From positions 1 to 64,000 of IMG/VR virus record IMGVR_UViG_3300033153_004222: a stretch of 64,000 nucleotides of DNA; one strand, written 5' to 3'. A program made the position numbers and the translations under genes. Shown piece after piece: positions 14,332-22,083 of this stretch (positions are counted from its first letter, which is position 1; each line of letters begins with the position of its first letter). Origin of the DNA: a virus. Below the pieces are notes generated by a model. That model was not told the DNA's origin, did no database searches, and saw only the letters and a program-made list of their open reading frames with translations.

Positions 14332-15108
14332 CTAAATCAACAGATTGTTAAAAATTAATTCCACTTCCAGAGAAAGATTTAAACATTCTATTACTTTATA
14401 CTGTTCATTTCCTTCAAAAAACCATACTATATAACACTTCCCGATATCTAATCCGGTTTGGTCCTGCAAAATTTTTCTGTACATAGAGAGTTGTAAAGAA
14501 TACACAACTAACTCACAATCATCGAGATGTGCTAATACTCCTTTTAATTTCTTATCATAAGGACTGTGATCCTGCATCCTTTTATTAGTCTTCCAATCCC
14601 ATATCTGAAGTTCATCAGCTTTATAATTGAAAAACACTTGATCTATCATTCCGCATATCCCTGCTTTTTTATCCCCTATCACCAATTCAGACTTAATTGG
14701 CAGGAGCTTCCCTATGATATCTTCGGTAAACTTATCAACTTGTGTGCTTATAGCATCTACCCTGTCCTTCACCAAGCTTACATTTTCTTTGCCTACTTCA
14801 GAGGCTACATAATCATATGGAAAAGGATAAACCTTCTGACATAATAAATTTTCTATATAATTGTGAATAACAGTACCTTTAGTAGTAGCGATCTTTCCGT
14901 TGATACGCCATTCTTTAAGCTTCTCTGCTTTAGTAATTCCTTCTTCTTCGGCTTTTCTTCCTGCCCAAAAATCTGCATTGAACTTCTCTTTGAACTGGTT
15001 CAATAAGGATGTTACAGATTGTTGTTTCTTTCCATTTAAAATATACACATGCTTCTTATCATAAAACTTTATATCAGAAAATACTGATAACTTTTTTAAA
15101 TAATTCAT
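14332..15108 (-). CDS. PD-(D/E)xK family nuclease
   Basis: SVTSLL, KGTVIHNYIE, ICGMIDQV, IWDWKTNK, YSLQLSMY. Confidence 0.85.
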   Translation of the reverse strand: MNYLKKLSVFSDIKFYDKKHVYILNGKKQQSVTSLLNQFKEKFNADFWAGRKAEEEGITKAEKLKEWRINGKIATTKGTVIHNYIENLLCQKVYPFPYDYVASEVGKENVSLVKDRVDAISTQVDKFTEDIIGKLLPIKSELVIGDKKAGICGMIDQVFFNYKADELQIWDWKTNKRMQDHSPYDKKLKGVLAHLDDCELVVYSLQLSMYRKILQDQTGLDIGKCYIVWFFEGNEQYKVIECLNLSLEVELIFNNLLI

Positions 15109-16117: not shown

Positions 16118-16333
16118 TTACTTCTTCTTTTTAGCCGGGGCTTTCTTTACTGCTTTGGGCTTTGCAACTACTTTTTCTTTCTTAGGAGCTGCTTTCTTTT
16201 TTACAGGTGCTTTCTTGGCGGCTTTCGCCATAAGTATCTTAGTCATTTCTCTCTGTAGATCCTGAACAGACTTAGATGCCCATCCATCAACTCCTAAAGA
16301 CTTAGCAAGTTGTTTGATTTCGTTAAATTCCAT
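16118..16333 (-). CDS. Lys/Ala-rich histone H1-like small protein
   Basis: C-terminal KAAKKAPVKKKAAPKK...KKAPAKKKK; N-terminal EIKQLAKSLGV helix. Confidence 0.6.
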   Translation of the reverse strand: MEFNEIKQLAKSLGVDGWASKSVQDLQREMTKILMAKAAKKAPVKKKAAPKKEKVVAKPKAVKKAPAKKKK

Positions 16334-16370
16334 TTTCTTTATTTTAATTATATAATAATTTCCGTTACCA

Positions 16371-16378
16371 CAAAGTTA
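16371..16378 (-). promoter_or_regulatory. Bacteroidota sigmaA -7 element (TAACTTTG) at the head of the minus-strand block
   Basis: TAnnTTTG about 38 nt upstream of the start at 16333. Confidence 0.55.
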
Positions 16379-16565
16379 TAAAAATTTTTCTTATAAATTT
16401 TTTTTCATGTTGTATATGCGTTATCACAGAATAGTCCTATCGATGGCCCCTACTAATCATTGGCAATAGAAACCCTATACCCTTTTTCAGTTGAAAGCGA
16501 AATTGCGTATTGTGGATTTGAATTGTAAGACAACTTACTTTTTATTAATCTAAAATTATTTAATT

Positions 16566-16838
16566 ATGGAATTTATAAAATTCTTTGTAAAAGTTACGAG
16601 TATCAATCCTATTCAATTTAATAAAGATAAAAATCGTTATTATTTTGTAATGGAAAGGGCTACTGAAATTGTCAATGGACAATTTACACAACCCGAAAAT
16701 GCTATTTTAGGCAAAGATGCCGAAAAATTAAATGTTCTTGAAGACTGGCACAAGCTAATCTCAGGAGAACTTGAGAAAAATGGCGTTTGTGAAGTACAAC
16801 AAATTAAAAAGGTTGAGCCATCAGGTGAAGCACTTTAA
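16566..16838 (+). CDS. Hypothetical protein
   Basis: 90-aa ORF with AT-rich leader, followed by a terminator. Confidence 0.65.
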   Translation: MEFIKFFVKVTSINPIQFNKDKNRYYFVMERATEIVNGQFTQPENAILGKDAEKLNVLEDWHKLISGELEKNGVCEVQQIKKVEPSGEAL

Positions 16839-16850
16839 TTTGTGATTAAT

Positions 16851-16887
16851 GGCAAAGGGTATTAATTTACCCTTTGTCTATTTTTTT
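16851..16887 (+). terminator. Intrinsic terminator
   Basis: GGCAAAGGGTA-ttaatt-TACCCTTTGTC followed by a T-run. Confidence 0.7.
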
Positions 16888-16910
16888 AATGTTTATTAAA
16901 TTTTAATGTT

Positions 16911-17282
16911 GTGAAAGAAAAAAAGCCACATCAAATTATTAGTAACAAAGTTAATTTATCAGACGGAACTATTACGTTTCGTTTTGTTGGTAGATGTACA
17001 GAAGAACAAATGACAACTTTATTAAAAATGCCATTTTATAACAAAGCAACTTTTGATGTTTTTGGTCGTAAAACTGGAAACATTTTAACAAGTTTTGTTT
17101 CTTCAAAAAATGGTCGTTTGTATCTTGAATTTTTGACAAATTCGGGAAACATTGCAAATGCTCAGAATCAAATGAAAGTATTTTTTAACCACTTTCAAAA
17201 AGTTAGTACTGAAAGTAAAATTTTGAAATTAAAAAGACATTTAGACTCTTTGAAAATTCAGGGTATTACTTCTAAATTTTAA
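16911..17282 (+). CDS. Hypothetical protein
   Basis: 123-aa ORF, GTG start. Confidence 0.55.
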   Translation: MKEKKPHQIISNKVNLSDGTITFRFVGRCTEEQMTTLLKMPFYNKATFDVFGRKTGNILTSFVSSKNGRLYLEFLTNSGNIANAQNQMKVFFNHFQKVSTESKILKLKRHLDSLKIQGITSKF

Positions 17283-17660
17283 ACCTCTCATTTTTAGGGT
17301 TTTCCTTTTATTTTGAACAGAGTTAATTCCCGTTTCAAAATTAAAATGAAAATTACCTTTTTTCGTTTCCCTGAAAAATGATGTTTTACAAAAAAATAAG
17401 GCAGAATCTTAAAATAAAGATTAAGCAAAAGAATTTTTTCACTTGTTAGCTACTTGTTGAAATGGCAAAAATTCCATGATGGTTGAACCTTAGACCATTT
17501 TTTTCTTGTTAAATTTTGGTTGGCGAAGTGAAGCTGTAAACCCAAAATAACAAGAATAACAAACCCATCTATGACTCCTACTAATCATTGCGTATTGCAA
17601 TATATGTTAATGCATATGTGATACGGAATTAAATTAATTGTTCACCTAAATTTATTTATT

Positions 17661-17927
17661 ATGTCACGGACTAAACAACGACCATTTGCTGTAACAGCAT
17701 TTGGAGTATGTACTCTTTTGGCTTTTATGCCTTTCGCAACAGTATTAATCAATATGATATTCTCTGGATTCTGTTCTTTCATTTATAATGATGGAACAAT
17801 CTATGATAGTATGATGGGACACCCTTTAAGTTATTTTGTTTGGGGATTGTTTGTTTTGATTTTTACGATCTGCTGTTTACATGAAGCAGACGAAAGGTGG
17901 CAAGATTCACAAAAGTATAATTATTAA
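17661..17927 (+). CDS. Small two-TM membrane protein
   Basis: Two hydrophobic segments; AT-rich leader. Confidence 0.55.
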   Translation: MSRTKQRPFAVTAFGVCTLLAFMPFATVLINMIFSGFCSFIYNDGTIYDSMMGHPLSYFVWGLFVLIFTICCLHEADERWQDSQKYNY

Positions 17928-18043
17928 TGACCGCTCGTTTCCTGGGTTTTCCTTTTCCACGCTTGACAGCTGTAGTAAAATGAAACTGATCCCTTTTCTT
18001 TTCCCTGGAACTGAAGTCTATCTATTCACCTAAAAAATATGTT

Positions 18044-18151
18044 ATGATCAAAATTAGAAACCCGATACTGTATTGGACAGTTGTTATTACTTTATTTTTA
18101 TTATGTAACCCATTTACGATATGTGCTTTATGTTTTTATGCATGTATCTAA
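18044..18151 (+). CDS. Tiny hydrophobic peptide (35 aa)
   Basis: MIKIRNPILYWTVVITLFLLCNPF...; shares the TTCACCTA leader motif with its neighbours. Confidence 0.35.
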   Translation: MIKIRNPILYWTVVITLFLLCNPFTICALCFYACI

Positions 18152-18169
18152 ATATAAATTATTTCACCT

Positions 18170-18370
18170 ATGAAACTTGAATTTAAAAAAGAAACCGAAA
18201 AATTAATCGCCCTTGGAATAGGGTGGGAACAACACGAATATCCTCATCGTATGGCACCAGAAAAAGTAACAAAGATTGTCTTTGTATTCTTATGCTGGGT
18301 AATAGAGGTAAAAATTACCACAGAGTATACTTTACTTACCGAAGGTACATCTGGGACTGAAATAGTATAG
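18170..18370 (+). CDS. Hypothetical protein
   Basis: 66-aa ORF followed by a hairpin. Confidence 0.55.
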   Translation: MKLEFKKETEKLIALGIGWEQHEYPHRMAPEKVTKIVFVFLCWVIEVKITTEYTLLTEGTSGTEIV

Positions 18371-18649
18371 TGAAGGGTGAGTGAAAGGAAAAGAGCTACC
18401 ATTGGTAGTTCTTCTTCCTGGATATCAGATCCATAACTCCTACTAATCTCTGGTTTACAGGATAATATGTGAGTGCATATGTTATTCTTGGGGATTCAGA
18501 GAGTTGATGAGAGCATATTTATCCATAACTCCTACTAATTTTTGCGGTTTGCATTATTTGGACTGCGTTTGTGCGTGGGAAAACGCACCGCTATTGAAAT
18601 ACTATGGTTATAGCCTTTGTTTTTATATAAGGCTTTTTATTACACATTG

Positions 18650-19072
18650 TAAATATTATAGCGTAAAGTTATATGTGCTCTTAAAGAGTAACGGAGTGTG
18701 GCGAGGTCCAGCTTGGCAACAGAAATGGTAATCGGTGAGTAAGACAATAGTGTTCTTACCATGAGAGAAGGCCTTCGATAATTGCAATTGTACAGGCAAT
18801 ATGTAATTCAGGCGAATGTAAGTCCCATAACAAATGGGCATTTGACTGTAAATCCTACGCAGTATAAAGGTCTTGTACCTGAAATGTTAAGCGAATAGAG
18901 AGGATTGAAGTTTGTAAGTAGAACTATCTGAAGCAAATCAGTAAAATAACTTTCGGTGATCGTTTTGGGCTTTTTGTTGGAAGGTTTTATGCCTTTCGGC
19001 AAAGCTCAAAGCTATCGATTTTATTTGACATAATCAAGTGGTGTTGAAAAATAAAGTATAGTTATATGATTT
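18650..19072 (+). ncRNA. Large structured ncRNA, ROOL-like (tentative)
   Basis: No credible ORF; local stems (CCCAT/ATGGG, ACTG/CAGT, TTTGGGC/GCTCAAA) and possible end pairing TATAGC/GTTATA; motif order (AATTGCAATT, GAATGTAAGTCCCA, GTAAATCCTACGCA, CCTGAAATGTTAAGCG, GTGGTGTTGA) resembles ROOL RNAs as recalled. Confidence 0.55.
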
Positions 19073-19101
19073 GACATTATGTTGAATTGTTAATAACTTT
19101 G
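19070..19101 (+). promoter_or_regulatory. Complete Bacteroidota sigmaA promoter
   Basis: TTTG (19070-19073), 20-nt spacer, TAACTTTG (19094-19101). Confidence 0.7.
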
Positions 19102-19108
19102 TAAGCTG

Positions 19109-19182
19109 AAGGAAATTAACTACTCATAGTTGCAACTATAGAAGTAGAGCGAGTTGAGTAATTACTTCTCGCTGTTTTCCTT
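19109..19182 (+). ncRNA. Three-way-junction RNA leader
   Basis: AAGGAAA/TTTCCTT closing stem; CTACT..ATAGTTGCAACTAT..AGTAG arm and AGCGAG..CTCGCT arm. Confidence 0.5.
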
Positions 19183-19191
19183 GCAAAATAT

Positions 19192-19273
19192 GGGGATGCT
19201 ACAGGCATTGATTACAATCAGGGCTTTTAAGAGCAGTTGTAAGACGAGGGTTCGAATCCTTCCATCTCCACCA
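19192..19273 (+). ncRNA. Mini-tmRNA: tRNA-like domain only (82 nt), Ala-type G3.U70 acceptor
   Basis: 5' GGGGATG pairs with CATCTCC-ACCA 3'; stemless D-loop; TTACAA/TTGTAA helix; GAC linker; GAGGG-TTCGAAT-CCTTC T-arm. Confidence 0.75.
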
Positions 19274-19279
19274 ATGTAA

Positions 19280-20125
19280 TGGTTCTGGTATACGAAAGAA
19301 AAATCGAGAACAATCGGGTGAAAGCCATCAGATATTATTACAAGACATAGAGCCAAGCAAGACGTGCAATTTAAGGAACAGATGATGTGTGGCTTTTGCC
19401 ATGAATTTATGACGTTCTGGCACGGTGCTCTAACGATAAAGGCGTGTGGGCCGATAACTCTGGCGACAGAGTATAAAGACGAATAGTATTCATACAAGAC
19501 TATTTGTTGCCTCTTCGGAGGTCAATCTACACAAGTTGAAAACGGCAATGATGCGTGAATGCGTAAGTTGTTATCCGATTGCCTAAATCGGATTGAGGTA
19601 GTAATACCAATAGGATAATCAGCAGACATAGTTACAAGTAAGTTTACCAACTTGCAAGTAGTATATGTCAGTTAAATATGGAACTCATTGAGTTTGCGTA
19701 TTTAATCGTGCATTGGTAAATGCATAGAGAACAGTAATCTATTTTGTACCTCAAAAGGGTACGAAGGATTTCCTCACGGACTGTTCTCTATTAGGAAGTT
19801 TATGATTAACTAAAATCAGAAAGCAAAACAAGTGGGGCGTTAGATATCGAAAGATGGCTAATACTATGCACTTCGGTGAACATAGTGCTTCAGTTACTCG
19901 CAAGGTAACTGTTGTTTGGATTCAAAAGACCAAGTATGTCCTGGCCGGGATATAATTGAGTTAAGTAGAATTTGAGTAGGTTCTAATGTTACGAGTGATA
20001 AGCGTTACTTATCGCCATTGGCAGTTACTTTATGCAAATAGAGTGGATACGTTTTTAACCAACAGGAATAAAAGAACGAAAGACTGACCAGATAGGGCTG
20101 TAATCTCAGGCTTTTCCTATCGTTT
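19280..20125 (+). ncRNA. Giant structured ncRNA, GOLLD-like (~840 nt)
   Basis: Many GNRA/UUCG hairpins (CTCTG-GCGA-CAGAG, CCTC-TTCG-GAGG, GGTA-GTAA-TACC, ATC-GAAA-GAT, CAC-TTCG-GTG); long-range TAGAGAACAG/CTGTTCTCTA; CTCAAAAGG and 3' GAAAGACTGAC..CTGTAATCTCAG resemble GOLLD as recalled; next to a tRNA-like element. Confidence 0.7.
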
Positions 20126-20160
20126 TTTCAAGGCAATTGTACAGACAAAACCAAGACATT

Positions 20161-20352
20161 ATGGAATATAATCACGAATATGATAATCATTCGGAGATAG
20201 ATTCTCTGAATGCTAAAGAAATGCAAGAGGCATACAATAAGTATTTGCTCTCGAAAAAGGATGAGCTGAGTGATGAGGAATATAATGCTTTAAGGGCATT
20301 GTTAGCTCAAAATGAAGCTGAGTTTCTATTTGATGATGATACTGATATATGA
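20161..20352 (+). CDS. Small acidic hypothetical protein
   Basis: ATG at 20161; highly Asp/Glu-rich. Confidence 0.55.
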   Translation: MEYNHEYDNHSEIDSLNAKEMQEAYNKYLLSKKDELSDEEYNALRALLAQNEAEFLFDDDTDI

Positions 20353-20457: not shown

Positions 20458-21054
20458 ATGAAAAATTACACAGAAAAAGAGGCAAACGAACAAATTGCCA
20501 AATTGGTACCTGGAAAGGTATTACTAACTTCCGTAAGGAAAGTCGCAGGAGGCAAATTTCACATTGAATTGGCAGAGAAAATCCAATCGCAAAACAGAAG
20601 TACCGTGAATGTATTAGGTATTTTAAATGCGGGTGATGAGCGATTTAATATCGGAGGAGCTCGTAGAGCTTGGGCACCTGCAGAAAAGGCACAACTATCT
20701 GAATTCTTCGGAATTGATGGAGCTGCACTTGATGGATTGGGTGAAAAGGAAAAGATATACGTATGTATAGCTGGACCTGCCTTAAATGGGATTCCATTAG
20801 CTATTCAAATCGTGGAAACGACTGAAGGCGATGATTGGGATAATGCGAATATCGAAACCTCAGCTAAAAGAGCTGGTAAAGATGGAGATATTCTGACGAA
20901 TGAGGGGATGCCAATCTTTTCCAAAACTTATGTGGTAGGAGTACCTGAAGGTAACTCTGTGCAACATGTTTACTTGCAATCTGACCAGCAAATGGAAAGA
21001 GCTGCTAAAGTAAGCCTTGGTGCATCAGCTACAGCTGAACCGACTTTGGATTAA
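20458..21054 (+). CDS. Hypothetical protein, possibly nucleic-acid binding
   Basis: 198 aa; KRAGKDG...GMPIF motif; stands alone between hairpins. Confidence 0.65.
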   Translation: MKNYTEKEANEQIAKLVPGKVLLTSVRKVAGGKFHIELAEKIQSQNRSTVNVLGILNAGDERFNIGGARRAWAPAEKAQLSEFFGIDGAALDGLGEKEKIYVCIAGPALNGIPLAIQIVETTEGDDWDNANIETSAKRAGKDGDILTNEGMPIFSKTYVVGVPEGNSVQHVYLQSDQQMERAAKVSLGASATAEPTLD

Positions 21055-21160: not shown

Positions 21161-21415
21161 ATGTTAACTAAATGGAAAAAATTTTTGACAATGAACAAGC
21201 AAAAAAAAGGTAAGAAAACAAGGACTACCAGCGTCTTTTCTCCGTCTAAAAATGTCAGATCTAAAACAGTTCAAATAGAGTATAAGGATATAATTACTCC
21301 TATACATTGGACTGAAGATGATGATGGAAAAATACAAATAGATGAAGATTTGATAAGGGAAGAATTTGAAGATGAACTTGAAAGAATAATTTTTTTAGCA
21401 AATATAGAATTATGA
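21161..21415 (+). CDS. Hypothetical protein
   Basis: ORF overlapping the next start (ATGA); true start may be the second Met. Confidence 0.5.
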   Translation: MLTKWKKFLTMNKQKKGKKTRTTSVFSPSKNVRSKTVQIEYKDIITPIHWTEDDDGKIQIDEDLIREEFEDELERIIFLANIEL

Positions 21416-22083
21416 TACTGATAAAAAATGAATGGGAAGTTCATGAAATAGGACTGAAAGAGTCAAAAGTATTTGTAGAACAATGGCACTATGCTCACGG
21501 AGCAGGTAAAGTTTCACATAAATGTTATGGGTTATTTTATAAGAATGATCCGGGTACATTACATGGTGTAGCAATATGGAATGTCCCTCCTTTAGGAGCG
21601 GCTAAATCTGTTAGTTCACATCATCAAAGCGTTTTAGCTTTAAGTAGATTTTGTTTAATAGATGATAGACCTGAAAATTCAGGTTCATATTTAATAAGTA
21701 AAAGCATCAAAAAGTTAGATAAATGTAGATGGAATACGTTATTAACCTATGCAGATACTGCATTGAATCATAACGGAGGATTATACAGAGCTGCTAATTG
21801 GGATTACGATGGAATGACAGGAAAGAATCCTATTTTTTGGGATCCAGAAAATGAACGGATGGTCAGCCGGAAAAAGGGACCGAAAACCTATGGCAAACAA
21901 GCTATGCTTGATCAGGGCTATGAATTTAAAGGCAATTATGCCAAGCATAGATTTATATATCCTCTGAATAGAAAAGATAGGAAATTTAAAGCAATAGGGC
22001 AACAAATAGATTTATTGTTTACTTCAGATGGTAAACAAGAATTAAAAATACGTACTAATGACAAAGACAAACTGGCAGATTGA
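21412..22083 (+). CDS. Mom-like (GNAT-fold) DNA base-modification protein
   Basis: FVEQWHY, YGLF, LSRFCL..DRPENSGSYLISKSIK, TYAD...HNGGLYRAANW: Mom family signature. Confidence 0.8.
   Translation: MILIKNEWEVHEIGLKESKVFVEQWHYAHGAGKVSHKCYGLFYKNDPGTLHGVAIWNVPPLGAAKSVSSHHQSVLALSRFCLIDDRPENSGSYLISKSIKKLDKCRWNTLLTYADTALNHNGGLYRAANWDYDGMTGKNPIFWDPENERMVSRKKGPKTYGKQAMLDQGYEFKGNYAKHRFIYPLNRKDRKFKAIGQQIDLLFTSDGKQELKIRTNDKDKLAD

What the first reader, a model, noticed from the sequence alone, without database searches (positions are those of the whole stretch)
18650..20125. Tandem ncRNA cluster: ROOL-like, three-way junction, mini-tmRNA, GOLLD-like
Seen: about 1.5 kb of an otherwise densely coding genome has no credible ORF and is packed with plus-strand stems and tetraloops, with a consensus host promoter in the middle. 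Established: GOLLD and ROOL are giant phage-associated RNAs of unknown function, often near tRNA genes, and reported to form multimeric RNA assemblies. Inference: two such RNAs flanking an aminoacylatable tmRNA fragment suggest an RNA-only module acting on translation or defence. tRNA-type processing of the mini-tmRNA could also release the GOLLD-like RNA's 5' end.
Basis: partly seen in the sequence, partly recalled or inferred. Interest (0 to 1): 0.88.

Follow-up and report, generated by a model that had tools for sequence, protein, structure and literature searches.

The report
Phage GOLLD RNA behind a mini-tmRNA
A marine crAss-like phage carries a gene-free stretch that encodes a genuine giant GOLLD RNA preceded by a cut-down ribosome-rescue RNA and two small folded RNA modules, but the supposed second giant RNA (ROOL) is not there.

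Summary

**GOLLD.** Window 19727-20112 (+) is a full-length Rfam GOLLD match at 208.2 bits (cut-off 150). The conserved, covarying RNA starts at about 19441, so it is about 672 nt.

**Mini-tmRNA.** 19192-19273 is an 82-nt tmRNA reduced to its tRNA-like domain (TLD). It has a G3:U70 pair, an encoded CCA end and no tag region. Covariation in relatives supports its fold.

**Small modules.** Two further conserved modules lie around it: a three-way junction at 19104-19185 and an "A motif" at 19346-19436.

**Relatives.** In 14 related GOLLD loci, 11 have a TLD upstream on the same strand, at gaps of 1 to about 1,180 nt. The small modules change position between these loci.

**No specific TLD-GOLLD tie.** One strict pattern finds TLD-only elements in 57 viral contigs. 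Only 1 of 50 further records also has GOLLD.

**"ROOL-like" stretch.** 18650-19072 gives no ROOL hit at E<=10 and has no homologue in any relative. It folds unusually well on the + strand only, so it stays an orphan.

**Precedent.** A TLD-only tmRNA is in print for mycobacteriophage DS6A. This scan had already noted mini-tmRNAs beside orphan non-coding blocks in several other phage genomes.

**Verdict.** This is a new variant of known kinds, of moderate interest.

The parts
18650..19072 (+). It is a possible lineage-specific non-coding RNA and is not ROOL.
   Evidence: The + strand folds at -109.2 kcal/mol, z -3.23 (0 of 100 shuffles); the - strand has z +1.27. There is no Rfam hit above noise. 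blastn and nhmmer find no homologue in relatives, except a small hairpin motif at about 18816-18845 that recurs in the relatives' modules X and Y at non-significant E-values. A near-identical relative in run X1 has it.
19070..19101 (+). Bacteroidota-type promoter consensus match (TTTG ... TAnnTTTG), directly upstream of module H.
   Evidence: One search found 5 matches in the window against 4.74 expected by chance, so this is position-based inference only. Relatives G005 and G006 have TAnnTTT[A/G] boxes 10-17 nt upstream of their TLD (sequence shown).
19104..19185 (+). Module H, a three-way-junction RNA.
   Evidence: z -3.22. The alifold consensus of 5 sequences has 26 pairs, 11 with changes on both sides. 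Model R3 hits G001, G005, L032 and L040 at 92.6-103.4 bits (the window itself scores 93.9) and H-like copies in L028 and L030 at 55.5 bits. It hits none of the 50 TLD-only loci searched that lie outside the GOLLD lineage.
19192..19273 (+). TLD-only tmRNA ('mini-tmRNA'): acceptor stem with G3:U70, a stemless D-loop analogue, helix P2 with a conserved cap, a T arm, and an encoded ACCA end.
   Evidence: Rfam tmRNA scores 46.7 bits (cut-off 47), matching model positions 1-374 with 17 nt in place of about 310. In alignment A1 of 12 sequences, 96.7% of cells are paired, 13 of 23 pairs change on both sides, and 0 of 500 shuffles reach this. ARAGORN does not call it.
19274..19345 (+). Spacer hairpin, specific to this phage.
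   Evidence: z -2.83, with 2 of 200 shuffles as stable. It has no blastn match in relatives. One low-depth contig of run X1 carries 71 other letters in place of 19272-19423.
19346..19436 (+). Module A: a closing stem, an invariant asymmetric loop (AAGCAAGA) and a variable inner stem-loop.
   Evidence: It is 89-96% identical in G001, G005, L032 and L040, where the GOLLD 3' half is only about 64-77% identical. It occurs in long and short forms. The inner stem covaries. Model R2 hits only loci of the GOLLD lineage.
19441..19726 (+). GOLLD 5' part, which the Rfam model does not cover.
   Evidence: It aligns end to end in 13 loci. Together with the first Rfam hairpin, 43 of 87 predicted pairs keep pairing through changes on both sides. 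RNA-library contigs from two studies begin at 19449, which is a weak hint of an RNA end.
19727..20112 (+). GOLLD 3' part, the region modelled by Rfam RF02032.
   Evidence: 208.2 bits, cut-off 150, model positions 1-416 of 416, E 2.2e-57. An RNA-library contig of run X9 ends at 20110.

Best explanation
The stretch 19070-20112 is a non-coding RNA gene cluster on the + strand of a marine crAss-like phage. In order it holds:
1. a host-type promoter box;
2. a three-way-junction RNA (H);
3. an 82-nt tmRNA reduced to its tRNA-like domain (TLD);
4. a hairpin;
5. a conserved small motif (A);
6. a compact GOLLD RNA of about 672 nt.

Shown: the identity of GOLLD and of the TLD, their conservation and covariation in relatives, and the shuffling of the small modules between relatives.

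Inferred:
- The parts are made as one precursor and cut apart.
- The TLD is matured by the host's tRNA enzymes and charged with alanine through its G3:U70 pair. It then binds host SmpB but offers no tag template, so it competes with host tmRNA and dampens trans-translation during infection.
- GOLLD is released as a separate RNA. By homology with the solved GOLLD it would assemble into a multimeric cage, whose role is still unknown.

The upstream stretch 18650-19072 is an orphan + strand structured region, possibly its own RNA, and it is not ROOL.

My confidence is about 0.9 for the anatomy and about 0.35 for the SmpB-decoy mechanism.
For: GOLLD:
- Full-length Rfam match at 208.2 bits.
- The 5' part is conserved and covaries in 13 loci.

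TLD:
- The tmRNA model matches with both ends only.
- In alignment A1, 13 of 23 pairs change on both sides and G3:U70 is present in 11 of 11 distinct sequences. Seven of those sequences came from loci found through a GOLLD anchor, not through a TLD pattern.
- A TLD lies upstream on the same strand in 11 of 14 GOLLD-lineage loci.

H and A covary and are confined to this lineage.

Lineage: the major capsid protein is 42-46% identical to those of crAss-like phages of Bacteroides and Flavobacterium.

RNA ends: contigs from RNA libraries of two studies start at 19449, one directly behind sequencing-adapter letters, and one ends at 20110. A contig of run X1 reads through. This is a weak hint of a discrete GOLLD RNA.

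Literature (passages read):
- PMC4131195 and PMC11915505 report a TLD-only tmRNA in mycobacteriophage DS6A. They state that a similar molecule strongly inhibits tmRNA in E. coli, perhaps by titrating SmpB.

The phage has no SmpB gene of its own.
Against: - The TLD scores just under Rfam's cut-off (46.7 against 47), and ARAGORN does not call it.
- Co-transcription is not shown. The promoter match is no commoner than chance in the window.
- The TLD-GOLLD gap ranges from 1 to about 1,180 nt. In L038 a small ORF homologue lies between them.
- G001, an estimated 97% complete relative, has GOLLD but no TLD.
- 49 of 50 other viral records with a TLD-only element have no GOLLD.
- The 14 loci are not independent. 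Three pairs are one contig held in two collections (L033 and G001, L035 and L039, L037 and L189). L029 and L036 resemble G001, L032 resembles L040, and L030 resembles G006.
- The RNA-library data are contigs of relatives 88-97% alike. They cannot show strand, level or true ends, and DNA carry-over was not controlled.
- Alanylation, SmpB binding and cage formation are untested.
Confidence: 0.7

Rival explanations
1. The TLD is only punctuation. It is a tRNA-shaped handle that recruits RNase P and 3' tRNA-processing enzymes to cut a long non-coding precursor into H, A and GOLLD, and it has no role in trans-translation.
For: In G005 and L034 the TLD 3' end lies 1 nt from the first conserved GOLLD position, so trimming the TLD would create the GOLLD 5' end. 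GOLLD genes are known to sit next to, or contain, tRNA genes (passages in PMC5737381, PMC6582537 and bioRxiv 10.1101/2024.12.08.627333). Relative G001 has Pistol (49.3 bits, cut-off 34.5) and Hatchet (48.5 bits, cut-off 51) self-cleaving ribozyme matches in the same non-coding area. That suggests processing of these transcripts matters.
Against: A plain tRNA or a minimal acceptor/T-arm helix would serve as a handle. Yet the tmRNA-specific features are kept: the stemless D-loop analogue, helix P2 and its conserved cap, and G3:U70. TLD-only elements mostly stand alone in other phages, with tRNA genes in only 6 of 51 loci and GOLLD in 1 of 50 records. In this window 167 nt separate the TLD from GOLLD, and RNA-library contigs begin at 19449 rather than at 19274.
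Confidence: 0.25
2. The TLD is a working partner or cargo of the GOLLD cage. One version has it tethering SmpB, EF-Tu or stalled ribosomes to the cage; another has the cage storing or displaying it. In this reading the cluster is one RNA-only machine.
For: The TLD lies upstream on the same strand in 11 of 14 loci of this GOLLD lineage. The cryo-EM preprint proposes that cages could enclose or expose covalently linked tRNAs and cites ribosome pull-down by GOLLD (passages in bioRxiv 10.1101/2024.12.08.627333).
Against: Spacing and the intervening content vary widely, including an ORF in L038. G001 keeps GOLLD without a TLD. 49 of 50 other records with a TLD-only element lack GOLLD. Here the TLD sits outside the GOLLD linker, where embedded tRNAs have been described.
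Confidence: 0.1
3. The stretch 18650-19072 is not an RNA gene. It is regulatory intergenic DNA (promoters, terminators, protein-binding sites) at the head of the early region, and its fold stability is a by-product of G/T-rich skew.
For: No homologue and no family were found. GC skew here is about +0.22 to +0.30, which favours G-U pairing on the + strand. Repeated CTCCTACTAAT-type motifs and a 16-nt repeat shared with the GOLLD downstream flank lie in and around it.
Against: The z-score of -3.23 comes from dinucleotide-preserving shuffles of the same strand, so composition is controlled. The stretch is flanked by terminator-like hairpins with U runs on the + strand (sequence). Relatives hold other non-coding modules of 350-450 nt (X, Y) at equivalent places, conserved at 77-91%. 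One 168-nt contig of an RNA library covers 18726-18874.
Confidence: 0.4
4. One reading: a ROOL-like and a GOLLD-like giant RNA flank the mini-tmRNA as one RNA-only module.
For: The + strand of 18650-19072 is unusually stable, and ROOL and GOLLD share genomic habits (passage in PMC5737381).
Against: There is no ROOL match at E<=10 in the region or in the genome. The stretch is 423 nt against a ROOL mean of 581 nt (PMC5737381). No relative has it beside GOLLD.
Confidence: 0.03

Closest known systems
GOLLD RNA (Rfam RF02032; the solved environmental example is an 833-nt 14-mer cage, bioRxiv 10.1101/2024.12.08.627333)
   Same: It is a full-length match to the family model above the curated cut-off. 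It has a conserved 3' part and a more variable 5' part, it is carried by a phage, and it lies next to a tRNA-like gene.
   Different: It is compact: about 672 nt, with a 5' part of about 286 nt against 420 nt in the solved example. It lies in a marine crAss-like phage. Its neighbour is a tag-less tmRNA rather than an ordinary tRNA. Two extra small conserved modules (H, A) accompany it. Cage formation is untested.
TLD-only (CDS-less) tmRNA of mycobacteriophage DS6A (PMC4131195, PMC11915505)
   Same: It is a phage-borne tmRNA reduced to acceptor stem, D-loop analogue, short P2 helix and T arm, with no resume codon or tag frame. Inhibition of host trans-translation is the proposed role for that kind.
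   Different: The host range differs (a crAss-like phage of probable Bacteroidota, against a mycobacteriophage). It belongs to a conserved family with a characteristic P2 cap, and in this lineage it sits upstream of GOLLD. I did not compare it with the DS6A sequence itself.
ROOL RNA (Rfam RF03087)
   Same: Only the habit is shared: a phage-borne, ORF-free, + strand structured stretch near tRNA-like genes.
   Different: There is no covariance-model match, the stretch is shorter (423 against about 581 nt), and there is no homologue or covariation. It is not a member.

Membership tests
GOLLD (RF02032) | Covariance-model score at or above Rfam's gathering score over the whole model | tested here: met
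   208.2 bits against 150, model positions 1-416 of 416, at 19727-20112 +.
GOLLD (RF02032) | A less conserved but structured 5' region joined to the conserved 3' region | tested here: met
   19441-19726 aligns end to end in 13 loci, and 43 of 87 predicted pairs have compensatory changes. It is shorter than the 420 nt of the solved example (passage in bioRxiv 10.1101/2024.12.08.627333).
GOLLD (RF02032) | Phage or prophage context, often beside tRNA genes | tested here: met
   The record is an 81-kb virus genome with terminal repeats. Its capsid protein is crAss-like. A tRNA-like TLD lies 167 nt upstream.
GOLLD (RF02032) | Self-assembly into a multimeric cage | not testable with these tools
   This needs cryo-EM or mass photometry of the transcript.
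TLD-only tmRNA | Seven-pair acceptor stem with G3:U70, discriminator A and a CCA end | tested here: met
   The sequence and the cmscan alignment show it. G3:U70 is present in 11 of 11 distinct sequences of A1. Most relatives do not encode the CCA.
TLD-only tmRNA | tmRNA-type body: no D stem, a helix P2 in place of the anticodon arm, and a canonical T arm | tested here: met
   The fold was aligned to the Rfam tmRNA structure. All 7 P2 pairs and 3 of 5 T-stem pairs covary.
TLD-only tmRNA | Absence of the resume codon, tag frame and pseudoknots | tested here: met
   17 nt stand where the model has about 310 positions.
TLD-only tmRNA | Rfam tmRNA gathering score | tested here: inconclusive
   46.7 bits against 47. 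Relatives score 40.8-52.7, and other phage TLD-only elements score 62.2 and 76.3. The model expects the missing middle.
TLD-only tmRNA | Alanylation by AlaRS and binding of SmpB | not testable with these tools
   Biochemical assays are needed.
ROOL (RF03087) | Covariance-model match | tested here: not met
   No hit at E<=10 in 18200-20300 or in the whole genome (that search had no positive control).
ROOL (RF03087) | Length near 581 nt, with multistem junctions and pseudoknots supported by covariation | tested here: not met
   The stretch is 423 nt. No homologue was found, so no covariation can be counted. The length figure is from PMC5737381.

The most novel reading that the evidence does not exclude
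In this crAss-like lineage the alanine-accepting mini-tmRNA, the H and A modules and GOLLD would form one co-transcribed RNA-only system aimed at the host's stalled-ribosome machinery. GOLLD cages would work together with the TLD, for example by trapping SmpB or ribosomes that the TLD engages. That would give GOLLD its first testable function.
Probability: 0.1. Interest if true: 0.85.

Novelty: new variant of a known kind. Interest (0 to 1): 0.55.

Why it matters
GOLLD is one of the largest bacterial and phage RNAs. Its cage structure is solved, but its function is unknown.

This lineage gives a compact GOLLD with sharply defined boundaries. It also gives a set of relatives for covariation analysis, and a recurrent neighbour of known biochemistry: a tag-less tmRNA. 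Together these suggest concrete experiments on ribosome rescue during infection.

The survey also shows that TLD-only tmRNAs are far commoner in phage metagenomes than the single published phage case implies. I found 57 viral contigs with one strict pattern, and 40 distinct sequences among the 51 contigs that were new. Interference with, or use of, the host trans-translation system may therefore be a common phage strategy.

Tried and rejected
**Searches that found nothing or nothing useful**
- blastn of 18400-20200 against 50,697 GenBank phage records gave no match.
- Neighbouring proteins as anchors: 20458-21054 and 21412-22083 gave no relatives in viral contigs. The exonuclease 14332-15108 gave 5 loci, none with GOLLD or tmRNA.
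- A strict GOLLD 3' pattern found only 2 viral contigs.
- The genome-contig scan with the TLD 5' pattern returned over 120 scattered hits in unrelated bacteria and archaea. None of the 80 loci fetched matched TLD model R1, apart from one weak 25-bit hit. I draw nothing from it.
- nhmmer profiles of the relatives' modules X and Y found nothing significant in 18650-19072.
- Rfam at E<=1 on 16200-18700 found nothing.
- A paper search for 'GOLLD' with 'crAss' returned only plant papers through word-start matching. 'mini-tmRNA' returned 0 papers. 'GOLLD' with 'tmRNA' returned 6 papers. I opened only PMC6582537, searching it for the term GOLLD; the passages shown describe no TLD beside GOLLD. So I cannot say that the pairing is absent from print.

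**Weak or unusable evidence**
- Host clue: 3 of 5 Bacteroidota-type tmRNAs, against 0 of 5 from other phyla, share the UUGAC ending of the D-loop analogue. The sample is too small to count.
- Sequencing runs: parts of the stretch with no RNA-library contig laid on them (18400-18725, 18875-19214, 19275-19448, 20111-20200) are not evidence of silence. Depths are per contig and cannot rank parts. No silent control stretch could be laid because the cap is one call.
- The joints in run X1 (H skipped; 19272-19423 replaced by 71 letters) rest on one contig of depth 2 from a run of unrecorded kind.
- ARAGORN 'tmRNA' calls in 4 of 51 TLD-only loci end at the TLD and carry odd tag peptides. I did not examine them further.
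Full report
**What the window is.** The window is bases 1-64000 of an 81,287-bp virus record with direct terminal repeats. Its portal, terminase and major head proteins match phage families. The major head protein is 42-46% identical to those of crAss-like phages of Bacteroides, Flavobacterium and Cellulophaga. The phage is therefore crAss-like, with a probable Bacteroidota host. Related contigs and run labels are marine or hydrothermal, which I take only as labels. The finding lies at the switch from leftward to rightward genes, in about 3.8 kb that holds only small ORFs.

**Check of the observation.** Between 18650 and 20125 the longest ORF is 111 aa, on the antisense strand across the TLD. 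Six ORFs from the region gave no Pfam hit and one weak PHROG hit at E 0.0058. The + strand of 18650-19072 folds at -109.2 kcal/mol, z -3.23, with 0 of 100 dinucleotide shuffles as stable. The - strand gives -58.3 kcal/mol, z +1.27. The three-way junction at 19108-19183 has z -3.22, and the hairpin at 19274-19348 has z -2.83. A Bacteroidota-type promoter consensus lies at 19070-19101. The window holds 5 such matches against 4.74 expected, so only its position speaks for it.

**GOLLD.** Rfam's GOLLD model matches 19727-20112 (+) over all 416 positions at 208.2 bits, against a cut-off of 150. That model covers only the conserved 3' part. The published structure has a 5' region of 420 nt and a 3' region of 413 nt (passage in bioRxiv 10.1101/2024.12.08.627333). 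To find the true 5' end I collected relatives:
- G001, G005 and G006 from viral contigs;
- nine further metagenome contigs, through a 27-nt anchor at the start of the conserved 5' part;
- L040.

Eight of the nine metagenome loci have a full GOLLD at 201.8-214.4 bits. The ninth is cut by its contig end. From 12 nt before the anchor, the sequence aligns end to end in 13 loci. Of 87 predicted pairs, 43 keep pairing through changes on both sides. Upstream of that point the loci differ completely. The GOLLD RNA here therefore spans about 19441-20112, roughly 672 nt, with a compact 5' part.

**The mini-tmRNA.** The Rfam tmRNA model matches 19192-19273 with its two ends only, and 17 nt replace about 310 model positions. 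The score is 46.7 bits against a cut-off of 47. ARAGORN calls nothing in the window. The sequence shows:
- a seven-pair acceptor stem with G3:U70;
- a stemless D-loop analogue;
- a 7-bp P2 helix with a capped loop;
- a T arm;
- an encoded ACCA end.

I aligned twelve elements: this one, nine from GOLLD-lineage loci, and two from unrelated viral contigs. They give 96.7% paired cells and 13 of 23 pairs with changes on both sides, and 0 of 500 shuffles reach these values. Sliding the partners by one to three columns drops pairing to 39-56%. All seven P2 pairs covary. G3:U70 holds in 11 of 11 distinct sequences, seven of which come from loci found through the GOLLD anchor rather than a TLD pattern. 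The P2 cap is conserved in this lineage. Most relatives lack an encoded CCA. The phage has no SmpB gene.

**The small modules.**
- *H (19104-19185).* H is a three-way junction conserved at 77-86% in G001, G005, L032 and L040. In 5 sequences, 11 of 26 pairs change on both sides.
- *A (19346-19436).* A has a closing stem, an invariant eight-base asymmetric loop and a variable inner stem-loop that covaries. It occurs in long and short forms. It is 89-96% identical between phages whose GOLLD 3' halves are only about 64-77% identical.
- *Distribution.* Models built from A and H hit only loci of the GOLLD lineage. The new hits are an A copy in L035 and H-like copies in L028 and L030. Neither model hits any of the 50 TLD-only loci searched that lie outside the lineage.
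- *Order.* The order of modules differs between phages. This window has H-TLD-hairpin-A-GOLLD. G001 has A-H-A, then about 2 kb with small ORFs, then GOLLD, with no TLD. G005 has H, two A copies and module X about 2.5-3 kb upstream of a TLD that abuts GOLLD. L032 and L040 have H-A, then the TLD, then about 1.2 kb, then GOLLD.
- *Other modules in relatives.* Relatives also carry non-coding modules X (about 450 nt) and Y (about 350 nt) without an Rfam family. G001 has Pistol and near-threshold Hatchet ribozyme matches nearby.

**How tight is the TLD-GOLLD link?** Among 14 GOLLD-lineage loci, a TLD lies upstream on the same strand in 11. One of these, L031, is weak and degenerate at 22.5 bits. The gaps are:

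| Locus | Gap from TLD to GOLLD (nt) |
|---|---|
| G005, L034 | 1 |
| L035, L037 | 118 |
| this window | 167 |
| G006, L030 | about 345 |
| L031 | 491 |
| L038 | 883 |
| L032, L040 | about 1,180 |

G001, estimated 97% complete, has none. L029 and L036 have under 600 nt of upstream sequence. The loci are not independent: several are the same contig held in two collections, or near-identical sequences.

In the other direction, a relaxed TLD-only pattern found 57 viral contigs. All 51 new loci hold a full-length match to my TLD model at 48.3-104 bits, and 40 of these sequences are distinct. Some invariant positions there were fixed by the search pattern. Only 1 of 50 of their records has GOLLD, and that record is the contig of L037. 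tRNA genes occur in 6 of the 51 loci. TLD-only tmRNAs are therefore a widespread, mostly free-standing phage element. Their association with GOLLD is a trait of this lineage.

**The "ROOL-like" stretch.** The ROOL model gives nothing at E<=10 in 18200-20300. It also gives nothing in the whole genome (which had no positive control). The best match there is a 20.7-bit, unstructured hit to an alpha-proteobacterial tmRNA model, which I regard as chance. No relative has a homologue by blastn or by nhmmer profiles of X and Y. The one exception is a small hairpin near 18816-18845 that recurs in X and Y at non-significant E-values. A near-identical relative in run X1 has the stretch. It may be a lineage-specific RNA, analogous in position to X and Y, or it may be regulatory DNA. 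I cannot decide between these.

**Hints from sequencing runs.** All four runs laid were contigs 88-97% alike, so they come from relatives. Contigs of RNA libraries from two studies begin at 19449. In X3 the contig starts directly behind 23 letters that I recognise, from recall, as an Illumina adapter. In X9 it starts at the contig's first base. One X9 contig ends at 20110. A contig of X1, a run of unrecorded kind, reads through 19424-20200. In X4, one RNA-library contig continues from the TLD 3' end straight into an A-type motif. One low-depth X1 contig lacks H and has 71 other letters in place of 19272-19423, which agrees with module shuffling.

**Mechanism.** The published passages say that a molecule like the DS6A TLD-only tmRNA strongly inhibits tmRNA, perhaps by titrating SmpB (PMC4131195). 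[quoted passage not shown] I did not see the primary paper (Mao et al. 2009). The retained tmRNA-specific features and the alanine identity pair make an SmpB-engaging decoy the best single mechanism, at about 0.35. A pure processing handle is next, at about 0.25. A functional partnership with the GOLLD cage is possible but weakly supported, at about 0.1. GOLLD's own role remains unknown. By homology it should assemble into a cage.

**Novelty.** GOLLD is known, its tRNA neighbourhood is known, and one phage TLD-only tmRNA is known. The points for which I found no printed precedent, in the searches named under Tried and rejected, are:
- a compact GOLLD in a crAss-like lineage with a recurrent tag-less tmRNA upstream;
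- the two lineage-specific modules H and A;
- the breadth of TLD-only elements in viral metagenomes.

Earlier notes of this scan had already recorded mini-tmRNAs beside unassigned non-coding blocks in several other phage genomes. This is the case where the neighbour can be named.

Noticed in passing
window 16439-16462, 17567-17590, 18429-18452, 18521-18544: There are four same-strand copies of a 19-24-nt motif with a CTCCTACTAAT core, all intergenic at the head of the rightward genes. Two of them lie just upstream of the non-coding cluster. They are candidate phage-polymerase promoters or protein-binding sites.
   Followed up: partly
window 18044-18151 (+); L015 1371-1487: A 35-38-aa hydrophobic micro-ORF is conserved at 76-79% DNA identity in relatives. 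In most of them it sits about 80-110 nt upstream of GOLLD.
   Followed up: partly
L016 1735-1796 and 712-969 (relative G001): A Pistol ribozyme match (49.3 bits, cut-off 34.5) and a near-threshold Hatchet match (48.5 bits, cut-off 51) lie in the non-coding area upstream of the relative's H and A modules. No such match was found in this window.
   Followed up: no
L015 1-470, L016 2571-3017, L027 (G005), L038 3104-3492; L028 (G006) spacer, L030, L031: Relatives share two further ORF-poor modules without an Rfam family. X is about 450 nt and 82-88% identical between relatives over most of its length. Y is about 350 nt and about 91% identical, and it contains an H-like three-way junction.
   Followed up: partly
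window 18784-18799 and 20133-20148: A 16-nt direct repeat with 15 of 16 bases identical. One copy lies inside the orphan stretch and the other lies just downstream of GOLLD, before the first small ORF.
   Followed up: no
L002 5050-5503: An unrelated 74-kb viral contig carries tRNA-Leu, a TLD-only tmRNA (76.3 bits) and an EGFOA RNA (61.6 bits) in a row behind sigma-70-like promoter boxes.
   Followed up: no
L010 5489-5882 and 13244-13747: A 93-kb viral contig has a GOLLD (138.2 bits, under the cut-off) inside an array of 22 tRNA genes, plus a full-length tmRNA gene with a tag frame.
   Followed up: no
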